Positions 24,821 through 59,695 of a stretch of DNA of 64,000 bases are shown here, piece by piece (the first letter of the stretch is position 1; the number at the start of each line of letters is the position of its first letter). Where the stretch lies: assembly GCF_048403405.1 (NCBI RefSeq), contig NZ_CP183136.1; one strand, written 5' to 3'. The position numbers and the translations under genes were made by a program. Below the pieces are notes generated by a model. It made no database searches. It worked only from the letters and a program-made list of their open reading frames with translations, and was not told the DNA's origin. Source of the stretch: Escherichia coli. GTDB lineage: Bacteria > Pseudomonadota > Gammaproteobacteria > Enterobacterales > Enterobacteriaceae.

Positions 24821-27155
24821 ATGAGTTTTAACGCAAAGGATATGACCCAGGGCGGTCAGATTGCGTCCATGCGTATCCGCATGTTCAGCCAGATCGCCAA
24901 TATCATGCTTTACTGCCTGTTTATTTTTTTCTGGATACTCGTTGGTCTGGTTTTATGGGTAAAAATAAGCTGGCAGACGTTTGTGAACGGCTGTATTTAC
25001 TGGTGGTGTACCACGCTGGAAGGCATGCGGGATTTAATCAAGTCCCAGCCGGTATATGAGATCCAGTATTACGGCAAAACCTTCCGGATGAACGCTGCTC
25101 AGGTACTGCATGATAAATATATGATTTGGTGCGGAGAGCAGCTATGGTCCGCATTCGTTCTGGCCACAGTTGTGGCACTGGTTATTTGCCTGATTACCTT
25201 CTTTGTTGTCTCCTGGATTCTGGGGCGTCAGGGTAAACAACAGAGCGAAAATGAAGTCACAGGTGGTCGTCAGCTGACAGACAATCCGAAAGACGTTGCC
25301 CGGATGCTGAAAAAAGACGGCAAGGACTCCGATATCCGGATTGGCGACCTGCCGATTATCCGGGATTCCGAAATCCAGAACTTCTGTCTGCACGGCACGG
25401 TCGGGGCCGGTAAGTCGGAGGTTATCCGTCGTCTGGCCAACTACGCCCGTCAGCGCGGTGATATGGTGGTGATTTATGACCGTTCAGGGGAATTTGTTAA
25501 AAGTTACTATGATCCCTCCATCGATAAAATCCTGAATCCGCTGGATGCCCGCTGTGCCGCATGGGATTTGTGGAAGGAGTGCCTGACACAGCCGGATTTT
25601 GATAATACCGCAAATACTCTGATCCCGATGGGTACAAAAGAGGACCCGTTCTGGCAGGGTTCAGGACGTACCATTTTTGCGGAAGCGGCGTACCTGATGC
25701 GTAATGACCCCAACCGCAGCTACAGCAAACTGGTGGACACACTGCTTTCCATCAAAATCGAAAAACTGCGTACCTTCCTGCGTAATTCACCGGCGGCCAA
25801 CCTGGTGGAAGAGAAAATCGAGAAAACGGCGATTTCCATCCGTGCTGTGCTGACCAACTACGTGAAAGCCATCCGTTACCTGCAGGGGATTGAGCATAAC
25901 GGTGAGCCCTTCACCATCCGTGACTGGATGCGTGGTGTCCGGGAAGATCAGAAAAACGGCTGGCTGTTTATCTCATCGAACGCCGACACCCATGCCTCCC
26001 TGAAGCCGGTGATCTCCATGTGGCTGTCCATTGCCATTCGTGGTCTGCTGGCAATGGGAGAAAACCGTAAACGTCGTGTGTGGTTTTTCTGTGACGAGTT
26101 ACCCACGTTACACAAACTGCCGGATCTGGTGGAGATCCTGCCGGAAGCCCGTAAGTTCGGTGGCTGTTATGTGTTTGGTATCCAGTCCTATGCCCAGCTG
26201 GAAGATATCTACGGTGAGAAAGCGGCGGCCACGCTGTTTGACGTCATGAACACCCGTGCTTTTTTCCGTTCTCCCGAGCCATAAGATTGCAGAGTTCGCT
26301 GCCGGTGAGATTGGTGAGAAAGAGCACCTGAAAGCCAGCGAGCAGTATTCCTACGGTGCTGATCCGGTACGTGACGGGGTATCGACCGGTAAGGATATGG
26401 AGCGTCAGACGCTGGTCAGTTATTCCGACATTCAGTCTCTGCCGGATCTGACCTGCTATGTCACTCTGCCCGGACCGTATCCGGCAGTAAAACTCTCTCT
26501 GAAATATCAGGCACGACCGAAGGTCGCTCCGGAGTTTATTCCGCGTGACATCAACCCGGAAATGGAGAACCGTCTGAGTGCCGTACTTGCCGCAAGGGAA
26601 GCAGAAGGTCGTCAGATGGCCAGCCTCTTCGAACCGGAGGTTGCCTCCGGAGAAGATGTGACTCAGGCTGAACAGCCACAACAGCCACAACAGCCACAAC
26701 AGCCACAACAGCCACAACAGTCACAACAGCCACAACAGCCACAACAGCCACAACAGCCACAACAGCCACAACAGCCACAACAGCCACAACAGCCACAACA
26801 GCCACAACAGCCACAACAGCCACAACAGCCACAACAGCCACAACAGCCACAACAGCCACAACAGCCACAACAGCCAGTGTCTCCTGCCATCAACGATAAG
26901 AAGTCAGATGCAGGTGTGAGTGTTCCGGCAGGGGGGATCGAGCAGGAGCTGAAAATGAAACCGGAAGAAGAGATGGAACAGCAACTGCCACCCGGGATCA
27001 GTGAATCCGGTGAAGTGGTGGATATGGCCGCTTATGAGGCATGGCAACAGGAAAATCATCCGGACACCCAGCAGCAGATGCAGCGTCGTGAAGAGGTGAA
27101 CATTAATGTGCACCGGGAGCGCGGGGAGGATGTTGAGCCGGGAGATGATTTCTGA
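24821..27155 (+). pseudogene. traD: traD (coupling protein), frameshifted near 26275 as sequenced
   Basis: ORF 24821-26284 has Walker A GTVGAGKS and ends [11 protein letters not shown]; the TraD C-terminal region with the QQP repeat continues in another frame (ORF 26256-27155). Confidence 0.85.
26673..26870 (+). repeat. Tandem 9-bp repeat (CAGCCACAA, about 22 units) encoding the TraD QQP tract
   Basis: Repeat units read directly; one variant unit CAGTCACAA. Confidence 0.9.
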
Positions 27156-47257: not shown

Positions 47258-47467
47258 TCAGATATGTGAACCACTTCCGCCGCTGCCACCGTTTCCACCA
47301 CTACAACCGTTGCTGCAACCACCACAACCGCCACCTTGACCACCGCAGCTACCGCCGCCGCCGCCGCCGCCACCACCACCAATGCCAACACCTAATGGAG
47401 ACTGGCGTGATAATTTAAGAGCATCAACGGACAAAACTACACCAAATTCACTCGCTTTTAATTCCAT
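47258..47467 (-). CDS. mcbA: McbA, microcin B17 precursor peptide
   Basis: 69-aa ORF with leader then Gly/Ser/Cys-rich core (GGGGGGGGGGSCGGQGGGCGGCSNGCSGGNGGSGGSGSHI). Confidence 0.95.
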   Translation of the reverse strand: MELKASEFGVVLSVDALKLSRQSPLGVGIGGGGGGGGGGSCGGQGGGCGGCSNGCSGGNGGSGGSGSHI

Positions 47468-48851: not shown

Positions 48852-49205
48852 TTAGTTTATTAACTTCATCGCATTCTTTTTTGTCTCCTCATCACTTTTT
48901 TGCTCCGATTGTGAAGAGGACTGAATGATTGTTGAAGAATTTAAATCGGCCATCTCTTTTGGAAATAGCGATCTCAATATATTCACGATATCTGAAAATG
49001 TGGTTTCTTTCGTCAGCAGTTCACATAAAAGGAAAGGGGCCCTGGGATCTTGTCTGTATAAGGCCAGACCTGCCGTCAGTGCAGCCCGGTTAAGGCGGCT
49101 GCGTTCCCCTTGCGGGATACTGTCCAGTGTATCACAAACAATTTTATCTGTTTGATTTACATCTGGATTTAGCTTAAAGGCAATGGTTCTGCGCTTGTCC
49201 ATCAT
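48852..49205 (-). CDS. parR: ParR (StbB), partition adaptor/repressor
   Basis: 117-aa ORF matching R1-type ParR; directly downstream of parM. Confidence 0.9.
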   Translation of the reverse strand: MMDKRRTIAFKLNPDVNQTDKIVCDTLDSIPQGERSRLNRAALTAGLALYRQDPRAPFLLCELLTKETTFSDIVNILRSLFPKEMADLNSSTIIQSSSQSEQKSDEETKKNAMKLIN

Positions 49206-50167
49206 TAATTACCTATGAGATACATACCGTTAACTAAATCATATTGAGAGTTATTGGTTTTAAAAAAACGTTCATCACGAATCTGTGTGTGTTTTTTTAC
49301 TGCATCGCATATTAATTCTGCGCCACCACCTATAACCATAACATGAGTATAACCAGAAAATTCATTGAGTGTATTTAATACACGTTGCTCAAGTTTACGA
49401 AGTGCTTCATTCATTGCTTCGGTGACTATTGATATTTTGTTCTCATCATTAATTCGTTGCTTCAGATAGTTATTATCTTTTCTGTGAATAATTATATCAT
49501 CAGCAAGATAGCTACTTCCTTTTGTTCTCGCAAGAGAAAGGGCATCTTTTACTGCAGATGTGACCAGAGATACACCAAGAGATGAGTCTCCGTATATTTT
49601 ACTGATCCCCGATAATTTCCCCATTACCTGAGAAATATCTAATGTGGTGCCCCCGAGATCTATAATTAATAAAGAATCTAACTCATCCAGTTCTTGTAGA
49701 ACTTCATAACCTGCCGGTATAGATTCAGGCATGACTTTTACATCTTTTATTGTGAATGTATCCCCACCATTTAATGTAATTTTTTTCCGGAAGTTTGCTT
49801 TCTTACGCTCAATATTTTCCGTATTGGGTTGGTTATTCCTGTCGTAATACTCTGTCAGAGGAAGTGTGCAAACAATATCCACTTCGCTTACCGGCAGACC
49901 ACTGGTCAGTAAGGCGTGGTGCACCGCAACGACATTAACGTCGCTGTATTGCCATGCGATATTGGTTGTGACTACAGCATCCGGGCTGATTGGATCAAAT
50001 GAATACTGTTCGCCGTTCAGTGTGTAGTTAAAGACCTTTTTATCACCAAAAGAAACTGCCCACTCGCGTTTGAAGCTGTTCGGGCTAATGTGCTGTTTAA
50101 TTGTTCCGTCGCTTTCCTGCCACTGTAGTTTGATGTTTGTTGAACCGTCATCAATGAATACCAACAT
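49205..50167 (-). CDS. parM: ParM (StbA), actin-like partition ATPase
   Basis: 320-aa ORF matching R1-type ParM. Confidence 0.95.
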
Positions 50168-50335
50168 TTATAAAACTCCTTATGGTGTTTTTTTGGTGTT
50201 TGTTTGGGTGTGTTTTGGGCTTTAAATGGGTTTATTTGTCAAGTTTACCCCATTTTAACTATCAATCAATGATTATTTGTCTTGTTTTGGTGTTTTGTTG
50301 GGCTTGGTATGGGTTGTTTTTGGGTTTTGTTTGGC
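50168..50335. promoter_or_regulatory. parC: parC-like centromere/promoter region
   Basis: Clustered short direct repeats (GGTGTTTT/GGGTGTGTTTTGG-type) upstream of parM; boundaries approximate. Confidence 0.55.
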
Positions 50336-50347
50336 GGATAACAAAAG

Positions 50348-50660
50348 ATGTCGCCGGGCTCCTCTTTTTACTGCGCCGGCTGACGCGGCGCGGCATAAAC
50401 GCTGCCTGTGGTCAGTGTCCCGCGTCCGGTGGGCACGGGACGGGCGCTTTTACCGCTCCCGGCTGGCGTCGGTGACAGTGTACGCCAGCCTGTCGCCCTT
50501 TTCTGATGAACGCCCTTCAAGCCGCTTTCGCGGCATAGCCTTGCCGTCAGAAAGACGACGGCTGCGGTATTCCACGGTCGGCCTGACCCGTTACCGGACG
50601 CGGTGAACAGCCCACAGGCAGCGGGGAACGGGCGCCACAGGGGCGCCCTCCCGATGCTCC
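50348..50660 (+). repeat. Large repeat, family A copy 1 (about 315 bp, GC-rich, structured); candidate Frpo-type single-strand promoter
   Basis: Near-identical to 51652-51970; ORF-track entries 50277-50606 and 51567-51911 are the same sequence translated. Confidence 0.7.
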
Positions 50661-50661
50661 T

Positions 50662-51603
50662 GTGAGGATAATTCCCATGCCAAACTGGTGCTCGAATCGT
50701 ATGTATTTTTCTGGTGAACCGGCACAGATCGCTGAGATTAAACGACTGGCCAGCGGTGCAGTCACACCGCTTTATCGCCGCGCCACAAATGAAGGTATTC
50801 AGCTGTTTCTGGCCGGAAGTGCCGGACTTCTGCAGATCACTGAAAATATCCGCTCTGAGCAGTGCCCCGGAGTGACGGCTGCCGGACGTGGTGCTGTATC
50901 ACTGGAAAATATCGCGTTCACCCGCTGGCTGACACACCTGCAGAACGGTGTACTGCTGGATGAGCAAAACTGCCTGATGCTGCATGAACTCTGGCTGCAG
51001 AGCGGTACTGGACAGCGTCGCTGGGAAGGGTTACCGGATGATGTCAGGGAAACTATCACTGTGCATTTCACCGCAAAAAGAGGTGACTGGTGTGACATCT
51101 GGGGTAACGAGGATGTATCGGTGTGGTGGAACCGTCTGTGTGACAACGTACTGCCGGAAAAAACCATGCCGTTTGACCTGCTGACGGTTTTGCCGACCCG
51201 CCTGGATATTGAAGTGAATGGCTTTAACGGCGGTGTTCTGAACGGTGTTCCTTCTGCATATCACTGGTATACAGAACGGTATGGCGTGAAGTGGCCTTGT
51301 GGGTATGACCTGAATATCAGCAGTCAGGGGGAAAACTTCATTCAGGTGGATTTCGACACGCCGTGGTGTCAGCCGGAAAGCGACGTTGTTGCAGAATTAA
51401 GCCGCCGTTTCGGCTGCACGCTGGAGCACTGGTACGCCGAACAGGGCTGCAATTTCTGTGGCTGGCAGTTGTATGAGCGCGGAGAGCTTGTTGATGTGCT
51501 GTGGGGGGAACTGGAATGGTCTTCCCCGACAGATGACGATGAGCTGCCGGAAGTCACCGGACCTGCGTGGATAGTCGACAATGTGACGCATTATGGCGGA
51601 TGA
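50662..51603 (+). CDS. Hypothetical leading-region protein, 313 aa (possibly DUF1281-like)
   Basis: Clean ORF between the two family-A repeat copies; family name from recall only. Confidence 0.55.
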   Translation: MRIIPMPNWCSNRMYFSGEPAQIAEIKRLASGAVTPLYRRATNEGIQLFLAGSAGLLQITENIRSEQCPGVTAAGRGAVSLENIAFTRWLTHLQNGVLLDEQNCLMLHELWLQSGTGQRRWEGLPDDVRETITVHFTAKRGDWCDIWGNEDVSVWWNRLCDNVLPEKTMPFDLLTVLPTRLDIEVNGFNGGVLNGVPSAYHWYTERYGVKWPCGYDLNISSQGENFIQVDFDTPWCQPESDVVAELSRRFGCTLEHWYAEQGCNFCGWQLYERGELVDVLWGELEWSSPTDDDELPEVTGPAWIVDNVTHYGG

Positions 51604-51651
51604 AGTATGACGGAGACGGGCGGGCAACCGCCCGTTTCTTTTCCGACAAAG

Positions 51652-51970
51652 GATGTCGCCGTGCTCCTCTTTTTACTGCGCCGGCTGACGCGGCGCGGCA
51701 TAAACGCTGCCTGTGGTCAGTGTCCCGCGTCCGGCGGGCACGGGGCGGGCGCTTTTACCGCTCCCGGCTGGCGTCGGTGACAGTGTACGCCAGCCCGTCG
51801 CCCTTTTCTGATGAACGCCCTTCAAGCCGCTTTCGCGGCATAACCTTGCCGTCAAAAAGACGACGGCTGCGGTATTCCACGGTCGGCCTGACCCGTTACC
51901 GGACGCGGTGAACAGCCCACAGGCAGCGGGGAACGGGCACCACAGGGGTGCCCTCCCGGTGCCCTCTGTA
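51652..51970 (+). repeat. Large repeat, family A copy 2; candidate single-strand promoter upstream of the methyltransferase operon
   Basis: Near-identical to 50348-50660. Confidence 0.7.
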
Positions 51971-51986
51971 AGAGAAGGAGTTTCGT

Positions 51987-52670
51987 ATGTCCCGTTTTGT
52001 CCTCGGTAACTGCATCGATGTTATGGCCCGTATTCCTGATAACGCCATTGATTTCATCCTCACCGACCCGCCATATCTCGTCGGTTTCCGTGACCGTTCC
52101 GGGCGCACCATCGCCGGCGATAAAACCGATGAGTGGCTGCAACCGGCCTGTAATGAAATGTTCCGCGTGCTGAAAAAAGACGCGTTAATGGTGAGCTTCT
52201 ACGGCTGGAACCGCGTCGATCGCTTTATGGCCGCCTGGAAAAATGCGGGATTCAGCGTTGTTGGTCACCTGGTCTTCACCAAAAACTATACATCGAAGGC
52301 CGCATATGTGGGCTATCGCCACGAATGCGCCTACATCCTGGCAAAAGGCCGTCCACGTCTGCCACAAAACCCGCTGCCGGACGTGCTGGGCTGGAAATAT
52401 TCGGGCAATCGCCATCACCCGACGGAAAAGCCCGTTACCAGCCTGCAACCGCTGATTGAGAGCTTCACACACCCGAACGCAATTGTGCTGGACCCGTTTG
52501 CAGGCAGCGGCTCAACCTGCGTCGCCGCCCTCCAGTCCGGACGCCGGTATATCGGTATCGAGCTGCTTGAGCAGTATCACCGTGCCGGGCAGCAACGCCT
52601 TGCCGCCGTGCAACGGGCCATGCAGCAGGGGGCCGCGAATGATAACTGGTTTATGCCGGAGGCTGCGTAA
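51987..52670 (+). CDS. Orphan DNA amino-methyltransferase (N6-adenine or N4-cytosine)
   Basis: DPPY catalytic motif followed by FAGSGST AdoMet motif; no adjacent restriction endonuclease ORF. Confidence 0.85.
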   Translation: MSRFVLGNCIDVMARIPDNAIDFILTDPPYLVGFRDRSGRTIAGDKTDEWLQPACNEMFRVLKKDALMVSFYGWNRVDRFMAAWKNAGFSVVGHLVFTKNYTSKAAYVGYRHECAYILAKGRPRLPQNPLPDVLGWKYSGNRHHPTEKPVTSLQPLIESFTHPNAIVLDPFAGSGSTCVAALQSGRRYIGIELLEQYHRAGQQRLAAVQRAMQQGAANDNWFMPEAA

Positions 52671-54162: not shown

Positions 54163-54575
54163 TGATGGCGGGGAAAATCCCCGCCTTTTTCCTGCCGGTC
54201 CCCGGACAGAGCACAAAGGAAGTCGCCGCCGGCTCCGCTTTACCCGGCCATGCGGGGCATGGCCTTGTGGGGGTTCAGTTATGTGGCCTCAGCGTCGTGT
54301 GCGGGCTGTGCCGTGCCTCCATCGTAGCCGGGCTTCTGCGGGCGGGTTGCAAGGTAAGGTGAACCGCTGCGGTCACCCGGTCCCTCCTTCCCGTCTGCCG
54401 TGATTTTCCGGTCGTTCACCCGCTCAGATTTCGCGGTCTCACCCTCCAACTCCCGCCAGCCGTGTGCGTCAGGCTGCGGCTTCCCTTGCGCCCTTGCAAC
54501 CCTGCAGGCCCGGCAAAGATGGAGGCACGGCACCGCCCGGTGTCGCGGAATATGTGAACAACGGAGGAAAACATC

Positions 54576-55789: not shown

Positions 55790-56395
55790 GTTTTTTCCTG
55801 ATGTTATGTTTCTGTGGTTACTGTTCTTCTTCTTCCTCTTCTTTCCGTTCCTCTCCTGTTTATGCCTTTTCCGGGCGTCCCCCTGGCGGGGCGGGCTGTC
55901 GTGAACGGAGCCAGCGGAGCTGTCTCCGCCCTGGCGGGCTTCCATCCCTGACGCAAAACCCCGGGTTTGCAGCGACCGGAACGGTCGCGCCACCCCTGTC
56001 GCGCCGTGGCCTGCGCTCCCGGCATCCCGGCAAAAAGACGCCGGGATGTAAGGAGCAACGCCGTTTCGCAAACCGCGCTTCACGTCGTTGCAGCGGGTCC
56101 CTGCTCATTGCCTGCCGGGTGCCACACACCCGTATGAGTCCCTGTCGCCGGGGGCTGATACAGCCACAACCTGCCGCACTGACTGTCCAGGGTAAATGAA
56201 CAGCCCACAAAATTTTTTACCCAAAACCCGGTAAAAAATTTTGCGTTCTGCCCAGGACAGGTGCGTCAGGCCGTGGCAGTGATGCCCCTTGCGGCGAAGG
56301 TTCTCAAACGGGTGAAGTTCATACCACAGGGAATACAGCAGCAGGTTCCCGCGAAACGTCAAAACCGCGGCTCCCGAAACTCAACGGGTGATGTT
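55790..56395 (+). repeat. Large repeat, family B copy 1 (about 600 bp); Frpo-type single-strand promoter candidate
   Basis: Long near-identity with 59040-59695, including hairpin CAAAATTTTTTACCC..GGGTAAAAAATTTTG. Confidence 0.7.
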
Positions 56396-56625
56396 CTTTA
56401 AAAATCAGGATTTATTTCAGGCTCCGGCAATACGCATTTATGTGTTCTGTCAGTCATCCGGCTGGCAGGTAATGAAAACGCAGGAACAGAAGGAGGAAAA
56501 CACCGGAAAGCGTCAGATGCAGATATGAAAAAAAGCAGGTCAGGGACCTGCTTAATCCACGCCGTAAGAATTGTGCGACCAATTTTGACGGCATTGTTAA
56601 CCAATTTGTCATAAGGAATCCATTT

Positions 56626-56856
56626 ATGACTGTAAGCATTGTTTCACCTTCCGCAGCGGCTGTAAAGCCCCGCCGTCATCCCCGTTTCAGACGCGAAGAC
56701 ATCCCCGCGCCGGAACTTGACCCCGTGCTGAAAGCCTTCGGGCGACACATTGCCCGGAGTTTTCGCCGGGGGCGTGGTGTACACATCCCCGCCATGAAAA
56801 ACACGGCCTTCGGGCAGGTGCTCCGCACACTCGAACTGAAACGCGCTTTTAACTGA
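56626..56856 (+). CDS. Hypothetical small basic protein
   Basis: 76-aa ORF, first after the family-B repeat. Confidence 0.4.
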   Translation: MTVSIVSPSAAAVKPRRHPRFRREDIPAPELDPVLKAFGRHIARSFRRGRGVHIPAMKNTAFGQVLRTLELKRAFN

Positions 56857-59039: not shown

Positions 59040-59695
59040 ACTGATGATGTTGTTGTTCCTGCTACTGCTACTGCTACTGCTACTGCTACTGCTACTGCTA
59101 CTGCTACTGCTACTGTTCTTCTTTTTTCTGCTGCTCTGATTACTGTCTGTTTTGTTGTTCTCCTGCTTATGCCTTTTCCGGGCGTCCCCCTGGCGGGGCG
59201 GGCTGTCGTGAACGGAGCCAGCGGAGCTGTCTCCGCCCTGGCGGGCTTCCATCCCTGACGCAAAAACCCGGGTTTGCAGCGACCGGAACGGTCGCGCCAC
59301 CCTTGTCGCGCCGTGGCCTGCGCTCCCGGCATCCCGGCAAAAGACGCCGGGATGTAAGGAGCAACGCCGTTTCGCAAACCGCGCTTCACGTCGTTGCGGC
59401 GGGTCCCTGCCCGTTGTTCTGTCCGGTGCCATTCACCTGTTTAAGCCCCTGTCGCCGGGGGCATAGACAGCCACAACCTGCCGCACTGACTGTCCAGGGT
59501 AAATGAACAGCCCACAAAATTTTTTACCCAAAACCCGGTAAAAAATTTTGCGTTCTGCCCAGGACAGGTGCGTCAGGCCGTGGCAGTGATGCCCCATGCG
59601 GCGAAGGTTCTCAAACAGGTGATGGTGAATACCGGAGGGAACAAAAGGCAGGTCCCCGCAAAACGTCAAAACCGCGGCTCCCGAAACTCAACAGA
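59040..59695 (+). repeat. Large repeat, family B copy 2, upstream of ssb; Frpo-type single-strand promoter candidate
   Basis: Near-identical to 55790-56395 apart from the hexanucleotide tract and a short variable segment. Confidence 0.7.
59059..59115 (+). repeat. Hexanucleotide microsatellite (CTGCTA), about 9.5 units
   Basis: Read directly; absent from the paralogous repeat copy, which has an irregular pyrimidine tract instead. Confidence 0.9.

What the first reader, a model, noticed from the sequence alone, without database searches (positions are those of the whole stretch)
50348..51970. 313-aa gene of unknown function sandwiched between two near-identical repeat copies
The ORF at 50662-51603 is flanked on both sides by the roughly 315-bp family-A repeat. 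The arrangement could reflect a duplication of the promoter element or a cassette inserted by recombination between repeats. The protein has no motif I can assign with confidence.
Basis: seen in the sequence. Interest (0 to 1): 0.5.

Follow-up and report, generated by a model that had tools for sequence, protein, structure and literature searches.

The report
Duplicated single-strand promoter flanking DUF1281 gene
The two repeats are copies of a known promoter type that works only on the single-stranded plasmid DNA entering a new cell. One copy drives a DNA methylase and the extra copy most likely drives an uncharacterised early gene, so this is an ordinary plasmid feature in a less common arrangement.

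Summary
Two direct repeats of about 320 bp (50341-50660 and 51646-51965, 97% identical) flank an intact gene. Its real start is most likely the ATG at 50677, giving 308 aa rather than 313.

The repeat is not a new element. It is 97-98% identical to the pESBL sequence upstream of M.EcoGIX. Wen et al. (NAR 2025) characterised that sequence, with 5' RACE, as the "class 3" single-stranded-DNA promoter, later called ssp3.

Each copy folds into a large branched stem-loop. Covariation across 24 Enterobacterales copies supports the fold, and G·T wobbles favour the transferred (window minus) strand.

The gene encodes a DUF1281/Api92-like protein. This family is uncharacterised and was already listed as enriched in leading regions. 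Fold and profile searches gave no function.

Most plasmids have only one copy, between DUF1281 and the methylase. About 363 PLSDB records have the sandwich. Roughly 1,150-1,270 have the product expected from recombination between the repeats, with DUF1281 missing. Distant Klebsiella and Citrobacter plasmids also place a class-3 element upstream of DUF1281.

Verdict: promoter duplication or replacement in the leading region, a new instance of a known kind. Interest is low to moderate.

The parts
50341..50660 (-). Copy 1 of the class-3 (ssp3 / M.EcoGIX-type) single-stranded-DNA promoter element. It folds on the transferred (minus) strand and directs transcription rightwards into DUF1281. The -35-like GGGACA is at 50421->50416 and the -10-like T(T)ATGC(C) at 50398->50392, both on the minus strand. 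These two boxes are my inference.
   Evidence: Repeat. ssDNA fold -97 kcal/mol, z -7.0. Core is 100% identical to the pESBL element. Covariation.
50664..50668 (+). Shine-Dalgarno GAGGA of the DUF1281 gene. It is retained from the gene's native leader, and the repeat homology ends just upstream of it.
   Evidence: the junction compared with F-type L001 and with L003.
50677..51603 (+). DUF1281 / Api92-like gene (yubA, yccB, yfdA in various annotations). 308 aa, acidic (pI 4.5), 16 Trp. Function unknown.
51612..51645 (+). Intrinsic-terminator-like hairpin (GGAGACGGGCGG-GCAA-CCGCCCGUUUCU, then a U-rich tail) immediately after the DUF1281 stop. It would make DUF1281 a monocistronic unit.
   Evidence: RNA fold -24.4 kcal/mol, z -4.0. 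Conserved in pESBL and F-type. Not reported by the simple terminator scan.
51646..51965 (-). Copy 2 of the class-3 ssDNA promoter element, in the position found in F-type and pESBL plasmids, upstream of the methylase. The -35-like box is at 51726->51721 and the -10-like box at 51703->51697, on the minus strand (inferred).
   Evidence: 97-98% identical to pESBL L005:4435-4774.
51987..52670 (+). Orphan DNA methyltransferase, homologue of M.EcoGIX / YubD and first gene of the downstream early operon.
   Evidence: NCBIfam NF010253, E 1e-150. PADLOC MTase_II. Synteny with pESBL.

Best explanation
The window covers the leading region of an IncF-type conjugative plasmid. This is the DNA that enters a recipient first, as a single strand.

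Each repeat is a copy of the class-3 single-stranded-DNA promoter (ssp3, the M.EcoGIX promoter of pESBL). On the transferred strand (window minus strand) about 250 nt of the element fold into a long, branched, imperfect stem-loop that host RNA polymerase can use as a promoter. Transcription runs rightwards with the transferred strand as template. Once the complementary strand is made, the hairpin no longer forms and expression stops.

Copy 2 drives the methylase operon, as in F and pESBL. Copy 1 has replaced the different hairpin that precedes DUF1281 in F and pESBL. DUF1281, with its own ribosome-binding site and terminator, therefore becomes a separate early ('zygotically induced') unit under the same type of promoter.

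The DUF1281 product is an acidic protein of unknown activity. Its most likely role is in plasmid establishment or anti-defence in the new host, and it is dispensable.

Because the two copies are 97% identical direct repeats, they are also a substrate for homologous recombination that deletes DUF1281.

Shown here: repeat identity, homology to the characterised element, the fold and its covariation, the strand bias, and the population variants. Taken from the literature: promoter activity on ssDNA. Inferred: that copy 1 is active, the positions of the -35 and -10 boxes, and the role of DUF1281.
For: - **Homology to the characterised promoter.** Both copies are 97-98% identical to the pESBL sequence directly upstream of M.EcoGIX. 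Wen et al. (PMC12672017) define that sequence as the class-3 ssDNA promoter, with a transcription start mapped by 5' RACE and conservation in F. [quoted passage not shown]
- **Fold.** Both copies fold strongly as ssDNA (-97 and -100 kcal/mol; z -7.0 and -5.4).
- **Covariation.** In 24 elements from Enterobacterales, 95% of cells are paired. 17 of 64 pairs show compensatory changes, against 8.6 +/- 1.5 in shuffles (0/500). Slid controls give at most 45% paired.
- **Strand bias.** G·T wobbles number 109 on the minus strand, against 19 A·C cells. This fits a structure selected on the transferred strand.
- **Context.** Orientation and synteny (DUF1281-methylase-yubE-DUF1380-...-klcA-ssb-psiB-psiA-sok) match the F and pESBL leading regions.
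- **Recurrence.** Class-3 elements sit directly upstream of DUF1281 in Klebsiella (L008/L009), Citrobacter (L012, L034) and Escherichia sp. (L032), and upstream of other small ORFs.
- **Alternative hairpin.** In F and pESBL, DUF1281 is preceded by another long hairpin with class-2-like blocks.
- **Protein family.** DUF1281 is family 27 in Samuel et al. 2024 (1,949 members), in that paper's supplementary table of leading-region protein families.
- **Deletion variant.** It is documented.
Against: - No transcription data exist for copy 1 or for DUF1281 in this plasmid.
- Wen et al. report six induced operons in pESBL and do not name DUF1281 among them. There, however, it has a different upstream hairpin.
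- A consensus sigma-70 scan finds no promoter in 50100-52100. My -35 and -10 assignment (GGGACA-17/18-T(T)ATGC(C)) is weak, and the -10 is poorly conserved across lineages.
- The wobble asymmetry is partly biased, because the structure was predicted on the minus-strand alignment.
- The function of DUF1281 is not supported by any profile, fold or defence-database match.
Confidence: 0.8

Rival explanations
1. The repeats are the ends of a mobile cassette (a transposon, MITE or integron-like unit) that carried the DUF1281 gene in.
For: The gene plus one repeat is present or absent between identical flanks in different plasmids. An IS110-family element has targeted the repeat in Salmonella plasmids.
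Against: The repeats are direct, not inverted. There is no transposase or integrase in the unit and no target-site duplication. The left and right junctions differ between lineages. The same element stands alone upstream of the methylase in thousands of plasmids. The presence/absence pattern is explained by ordinary homologous recombination between 320-bp direct repeats.
Confidence: 0.04
2. The repeat is protein-coding: it is the 'YubC' / hypothetical protein of about 100 aa annotated inside it in many records.
For: Many GenBank/RefSeq records annotate a CDS over the repeat. ORFs of 109 and 114 aa exist in the window.
Against: Six of the seven differences between the two copies that fall within the ORF change the amino acid. 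In Klebsiella no gene is called over the element. Changes between lineages are compensatory for base pairing rather than for coding.
Confidence: 0.03
3. The structure acts in the mRNA, as a 5' leader or riboregulator transcribed from an ordinary double-strand promoter further upstream, and not in the transferred DNA strand.
For: The plus strand also folds well (-95 kcal/mol, z -6.5), because a hairpin is nearly symmetric. A small hairpin with a compensatory change between the two copies lies just before the RBS.
Against: No Rfam family matches above threshold. No consensus promoter lies upstream. Non-Watson-Crick cells are overwhelmingly G·T on the minus strand, which would be A·C mismatches in the mRNA. 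Published work shows the orthologous element drives transient, ssDNA-dependent expression that lasts longer in uvrD mutants.
Confidence: 0.07
4. The copies serve mainly as single-strand initiation (priming) sites, or as structural pauses for complementary-strand synthesis, rather than as promoters for the downstream genes.
For: Class-1 Frpo transcripts prime DNA synthesis, and the class-2 element ssp2 acts as a replication roadblock (Masai & Arai 1997 as cited). A second copy would add a priming site.
Against: ssp3 is reported to have no roadblock activity. The elements always sit immediately upstream of a plus-strand gene with an RBS. Priming and promoter roles are not exclusive.
Confidence: 0.1

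Closest known systems
Class-3 ssDNA promoter (ssp3) upstream of M.EcoGIX in IncI1 plasmid pESBL and of its homologue in F (Wen et al., NAR 2025, PMC12672017)
   Same: Sequence is 97-98% identical, and the copy-1 core is 100% identical. Position upstream of the methylase, orientation relative to the transferred strand, and the large stem-loop are all the same.
   Different: Here there are two copies. The extra one stands in front of DUF1281, and I found no description of that in the papers I could read. Activity of this extra copy is untested.
Frpo / ssi class-1 ssDNA promoters (F Frpo1/Frpo2, ColIb-P9 ssi1-3; Masai & Arai 1997; Couturier et al. 2023)
   Same: Same principle: a hairpin in the transferred strand mimics a duplex promoter and gives early, transient expression. 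These also occur as dispersed direct repeats in the leading region. Two copies lie in this window at 55807-56315 and 59114-59622.
   Different: No detectable sequence similarity to the family-A repeat beyond a 13-mer. The fold architecture differs: class 3 is branched and lacks the A/T-rich apical stem of Frpo.
DUF1281 / Api92 (PDB 2IJR, Yersinia pseudotuberculosis pathogenicity-island protein)
   Different: Api92 comes from a chromosomal island and this protein from a plasmid leading region. Neither has a known function.
Repeat-mediated deletion between Frpo1 and Frpo2 discussed for F (Couturier et al. 2023)
   Same: Direct repeats of an ssDNA promoter are a substrate for homologous recombination that would remove the intervening genes.
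   Different: In F the intervening segment is protected by flmAB (hok/sok). Here nothing protects DUF1281, and the deletion product is common in databases.

Membership tests
Class-3 ssDNA promoter (ssp3 / M.EcoGIX promoter) | Sequence homology to the pESBL element upstream of M.EcoGIX | tested here: met
   both copies are 97-98% identical over about 320 nt; the copy-1 core is 100% identical to pESBL.
Class-3 ssDNA promoter (ssp3 / M.EcoGIX promoter) | Lies in the leading region immediately upstream of a gene whose template is the transferred strand | tested here: met
   Gene order and orientation match pESBL and F. oriT itself lies beyond the window end, so the strand assignment rests on synteny.
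Class-3 ssDNA promoter (ssp3 / M.EcoGIX promoter) | The transferred strand folds into a large stable stem-loop | tested here: met
   (z -7.0 and -5.4). Covariation in 24 homologues. G·T asymmetry.
Class-3 ssDNA promoter (ssp3 / M.EcoGIX promoter) | -35 and -10 boxes reconstituted in the stem | tested here: inconclusive
   The consensus scan finds none. By eye there is a conserved G(G/A)(G/C)ACACTG, then 17-18 nt, then T(T)ATGC(C) at the stem base, opposite the non-complementary CCGTTCCC. The -10 is weakly conserved.
Class-3 ssDNA promoter (ssp3 / M.EcoGIX promoter) | Initiates transcription on ssDNA in the recipient and is silent as dsDNA | not testable with these tools
   Shown for the pESBL orthologue by RNA-seq and 5' RACE. 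Not shown for either copy here.
Frpo / ssi class 1 | Sequence similarity to F ssiD / ColIb-P9 ssi1-3 | tested here: not met
   blastn of the repeat against the window, which contains two class-1 copies, finds only a 13-nt match.
DUF1281 / Api92-like proteins | Pfam PF06924 plus PF18406 domains, and the Api92 fold | tested here: met
Known anti-defence proteins (ArdA, KlcA/ArdB, PsiB, Acr and others) | Profile or fold match to a characterised anti-defence family | tested here: not met
Transposon / insertion-sequence cassette | Terminal inverted repeats, a transposase, and a target-site duplication | tested here: not met
   The repeats are direct. The only ORF between them is DUF1281. The flanks show no duplication.

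The most novel reading that the evidence does not exclude
DUF1281 is an unrecognised anti-defence or establishment factor. Plasmids have repeatedly placed it under ssDNA promoters of different classes: class 3 here and in Klebsiella and Citrobacter, and a class-2-like hairpin in F and pESBL. The flanking promoter repeats act as a built-in gain/loss switch, letting plasmid lineages shed or regain the gene by homologous recombination according to the hosts they meet.
Probability: 0.25. Interest if true: 0.55.

Novelty: new member of a known kind. Interest (0 to 1): 0.3.

Why it matters
The result accounts for a puzzling pair of repeats with a mechanism already shown by experiment, and it corrects the many database records that annotate a 'YubC' protein inside the element.

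What is modestly new is that class-3 single-strand promoters behave as portable modules. They stand in front of DUF1281 and other small genes in several Enterobacterales lineages, and their repetition produces a common presence/absence polymorphism of DUF1281.

This marks DUF1281, one of the larger uncharacterised leading-region families, as a reasonable candidate for early-expression and anti-defence assays. It does not open a new kind of biology.

Tried and rejected
- **Rfam**: no family at gathering score over the repeats. There is only a weak sub-threshold 'Erse' hit on the minus strand.
- **Similarity to Frpo class 1**: none, so the initial idea that the repeat is simply another Frpo copy was dropped.
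- **Consensus promoter and terminator scan**: no sigma-70 promoter, and it also missed the terminator-like hairpin seen by folding.
- **Literature** on DUF1281, yubA and Api92: nothing functional.
- **An invariant N-terminal Pro** (MPNWC) suggested a tautomerase-like catalytic Pro-1. No tautomerase appears among the structural matches, so this was not pursued.
- **Transcription start of the pESBL class-3 promoter**: I could not obtain the coordinates. The figures and supplements of PMC12672017 are not held as text, so my -35/-10/TSS placement is unverified.
- **First count of the DUF1281-less variant** (1,520 records): this included sandwich records joined from two pieces. It was corrected to about 1,150-1,270.

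Full report
**Observation.** The window holds a two-copy direct repeat, 50341-50640 and 51646-51945, at 97% identity. Alignment and per-base comparison extend it to about 320 nt (50341-50660 and 51646-51965), with 11 differences before the copies diverge. Between the copies lies an intact ORF. The longest mechanical ORF is 50662-51603 (GTG start, 313 aa). All 25 aligned homologues begin MPNWC, and a GAGGA box lies 8 nt before the ATG at 50677. The gene is therefore most likely 50677-51603, 308 aa.

**Context.** To the left, on the minus strand, are parM and parR (48852-50167) and a parC-like iteron region. To the right, all on the plus strand, are:
- an orphan DNA methylase (51987-52670; NCBIfam NF010253, E 1e-150);
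- yubE-like, DUF1380 and klcA-like genes, then ssb, a parB-like gene, psiB and psiA;
- a sok RNA at the window end.

This is the leading region of an F-like conjugative plasmid. The nearest record, CP088620.1, is 99.2% identical over the 2-kb query (window 50100-52100) and is typed IncFIA/MOBF. The same gene order occurs in F-type plasmids and in the IncI1 plasmid pESBL, where all these genes point towards oriT. By that synteny the transferred strand is the window's minus strand, which is the template for these genes.

**What the repeat is.** It has no similarity to the classical Frpo/ssi elements. Two of those are present elsewhere in the window (55807-56315 and 59114-59622), and the published reference sequences are.

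It is, however, 97-98% identical to the pESBL sequence immediately upstream of M.EcoGIX and to the F-type sequence upstream of yubD. Wen et al. (NAR 2025, PMC12672017) showed that M.EcoGIX is one of six pESBL operons induced up to about 500-fold within 15 min of transfer. They also showed that:
- the intergenic hairpin upstream of it has no homology to Frpo and defines a "class 3" ssDNA promoter;
- its transcription start was mapped by 5' RACE;
- the element is conserved in F;
- induction lasts longer in uvrD recipients.

A 2026 preprint calls the element ssp3 and uses it as a promoter of equivalent strength to ssp2 but without roadblock activity. Copy 2 is therefore an orthologue of a known, experimentally supported element, and copy 1 is an extra copy.

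**Structure.** As single-stranded DNA the minus strand of copy 1 folds at -97.3 kcal/mol (z -7.0), and copy 2 at -100.2 kcal/mol (z -5.4). A scan of one genome per species with a 20-nt invariant core found 26 loci, mostly Enterobacterales.

I aligned 24 elements from Escherichia, Klebsiella, Citrobacter, Raoultella, Edwardsiella, Cedecea, Serratia, Buttiauxella, Erwinia and others, in transferred-strand orientation. The consensus fold has 64 pairs: a long outer stem carrying two inner branches. The evidence for it:

| Measure | Observed | Control |
|---|---|---|
| Cells paired | 95% | at most 45% when partners are slid |
| Pairs with compensatory double changes | 17 | 8.6 +/- 1.5 in shuffles; 0 of 500 reach the observed value |

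Non-Watson-Crick cells are mostly G·T on the minus strand (109), against 19 A·C. This is as expected if the transferred strand is the one selected to fold. The test is partly biased, because the structure was derived on that strand.

The 3' arm carries a conserved G(G/A)(G/C)ACACTG. After 17-18 nt comes T(T)ATGC(C), just beyond the base of the stem and opposite a conserved, non-complementary CCGTTCCC. I read this as a -35-like box in duplex and a -10-like box in a permanently open bubble. This is inference: the consensus scan finds no promoter and the -10 varies between lineages.

**The ORF annotated inside the repeat.** Many records annotate a 'YubC' or hypothetical protein over the repeat. 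It is probably spurious. Six of the seven differences between the copies that fall within that ORF are non-synonymous. No gene is called over the Klebsiella element. Sequence change between lineages preserves pairing, not coding.

**The gene.**
- Pfam assigns DUF1281 (E 4e-45) and DUF1281_C (E 1e-14).
- The only solved relative is Api92 of Yersinia pseudotuberculosis (2IJR; E 4e-47).
- AFDB50 returns almost only uncharacterised or DUF1281-annotated proteins.
- NCBIfam and PADLOC give nothing, and the PHROGs families matched have no known function.
- The protein is acidic (pI 4.5; 43 D+E against 21 K+R) and rich in Trp (16).
- Samuel et al. 2024 list the family (their number 27; 1,949 members; 'Uncharacterized; DUF1281') in their supplementary table of leading-region protein families.
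- I found no functional paper.
- A strong hairpin followed by a U-rich tract (51612-51645; -24.4 kcal/mol) follows the stop codon. The gene therefore looks like a self-contained unit: promoter element, RBS, CDS, terminator.

**Comparison across plasmids.** Three arrangements exist.

| Arrangement | Examples | Approximate count in PLSDB |
|---|---|---|
| (a) different hairpin - DUF1281 - class 3 - methylase | F-type, pESBL | most of the records carrying the gene, among the 5,000 best hits |
| (b) parM/parC - class 3 - DUF1281 - class 3 - methylase | this window | 363 records contain the repeat-to-DUF1281 junction |
| (c) parM/parC - class 3 - methylase, no DUF1281 | Salmonella Kentucky pN17S1545-2 | about 1,150-1,270 records |

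- In (a), DUF1281 is preceded by a different 196-nt hairpin that is 100% identical between the IncF and IncI1 records. There is a single class-3 copy between DUF1281 and the methylase.
- The count for (b) comes.
- In (c), the left flank matches that of copy 1 and the right flank matches that of copy 2. The count is the 1,520 records minus the sandwich records that the tool joins from two pieces.

Form (c) is the product expected from homologous recombination between the two direct repeats of form (b). It could in principle be the ancestor instead.

The junction of copy 1 with the DUF1281 leader lies about 15 nt before the ATG. It differs slightly between two sandwich plasmids, by 15 extra nt in L003.

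**Recurrence in distant lineages.** In Klebsiella (L008/L009) and Citrobacter (L012, L034) plasmids, DUF1281 is only 45-48% identical to this one. There too a class-3-type element stands upstream of both DUF1281 and the methylase. Other copies precede a 155-aa and an 82-aa ORF.

Pairwise identities show that the window's copy 1 has the pESBL-type core (100%). This suggests a recent copy. The two Citrobacter copies belong to different sub-lineages (83% to each other against 92-95% to copies elsewhere), so the association with DUF1281 is old or recurrent.

**Interpretation.** The repeats are two copies of a known single-strand promoter. The extra copy has replaced DUF1281's usual hairpin, which is class-2-like. 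DUF1281 is thus most likely expressed immediately and transiently on entry into a recipient, in parallel with the methylase operon.

"Cassette inserted by recombination" is supported only in the sense that the repeats mediate loss, and possibly exchange, of the gene. The function of DUF1281 remains unknown. Its constant placement behind ssDNA-promoter-type hairpins in the leading region makes an establishment or anti-defence role the best guess. Its absence from more than a thousand otherwise similar plasmids shows it is dispensable.

**Novelty and score.** The element, its mechanism and the protein family are all already described. What I could not find in the papers I read is the second copy upstream of DUF1281, its recurrence in other genera, and the deletion polymorphism it produces. 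I rate this a new member of a known kind, with interest 0.3.

Noticed in passing
L001:2820-3016 and L005:3275-3470 (no counterpart in the window): In F-type and pESBL plasmids, DUF1281 is preceded by a 196-nt hairpin element (ssDNA fold z -5.6). It is 100% identical between the IncF and IncI1 records. It shares sequence blocks with the class-2 element upstream of klcA and with 'Frpo' 4' of Samuel et al. 2024. It looks like a shortened class-2-type ssDNA promoter and is not among the six reported for pESBL.
   Followed up: partly
window 54163-54575; 55807-56315; 59114-59622: Other single-strand promoter elements lie in the window. A class-2 (ssp2-like) giant hairpin sits upstream of the klcA-like gene (z -5.9). 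Two class-1 Frpo-type copies, 90-96% identical and 3.3 kb apart, sit upstream of a 76-aa/453-aa gene pair and of ssb.
   Followed up: partly
window 50348-50365, 51653-51670 and about 54218-54236: A box GATGTCGCC(G/-)NGCTCC (on the transferred strand, GGAGC-N3/4-GCGACATC) marks the gene-distal end of class-3 and class-2 elements. It also occurs in Frpo'4 and Frpo*3 of Samuel et al. It is absent from the Klebsiella-type class-3 copies. Its function is unknown.
   Followed up: no
L006:5512-7400 and L007:4895-6783: An IS110-family insertion splits the class-3 element upstream of the methylase in Salmonella plasmids, at about element position 197. That is next to the GCCGCTTTCGCGGC mini-hairpin, whose sequence was the (therefore invariant) core used to collect the copies.
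   Followed up: partly
window 50277-50606 and 51567-51911: ORFs inside the repeats correspond to the widely annotated 'YubC' / hypothetical protein. Six of the seven differences between the copies in this ORF are non-synonymous, so the annotation is probably spurious.
   Followed up: yes
L038 (CP082623.1) and about 1,150-1,270 other PLSDB records: parM-parC-class 3-methylase with no DUF1281. This is the arrangement expected from recombination between the two repeats, and it is more common than the sandwich itself.
   Followed up: yes
window 56530-56631 (minus strand): An Rfam AS-pc01 hit ('Antisense to pHK01_035') at 79.4 bits, just above the gathering score of 79. It lies a short way downstream of the first class-1 Frpo copy.
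   Followed up: no
window 47258-47467 (minus strand); 26619-26921: A microcin B17 precursor (McbA-like, Gly/Ser/Cys-rich) lies just left of the partition genes. The 9-bp tandem array is the QQP repeat near the C-terminus of a TraD-like ORF.
   Followed up: partly
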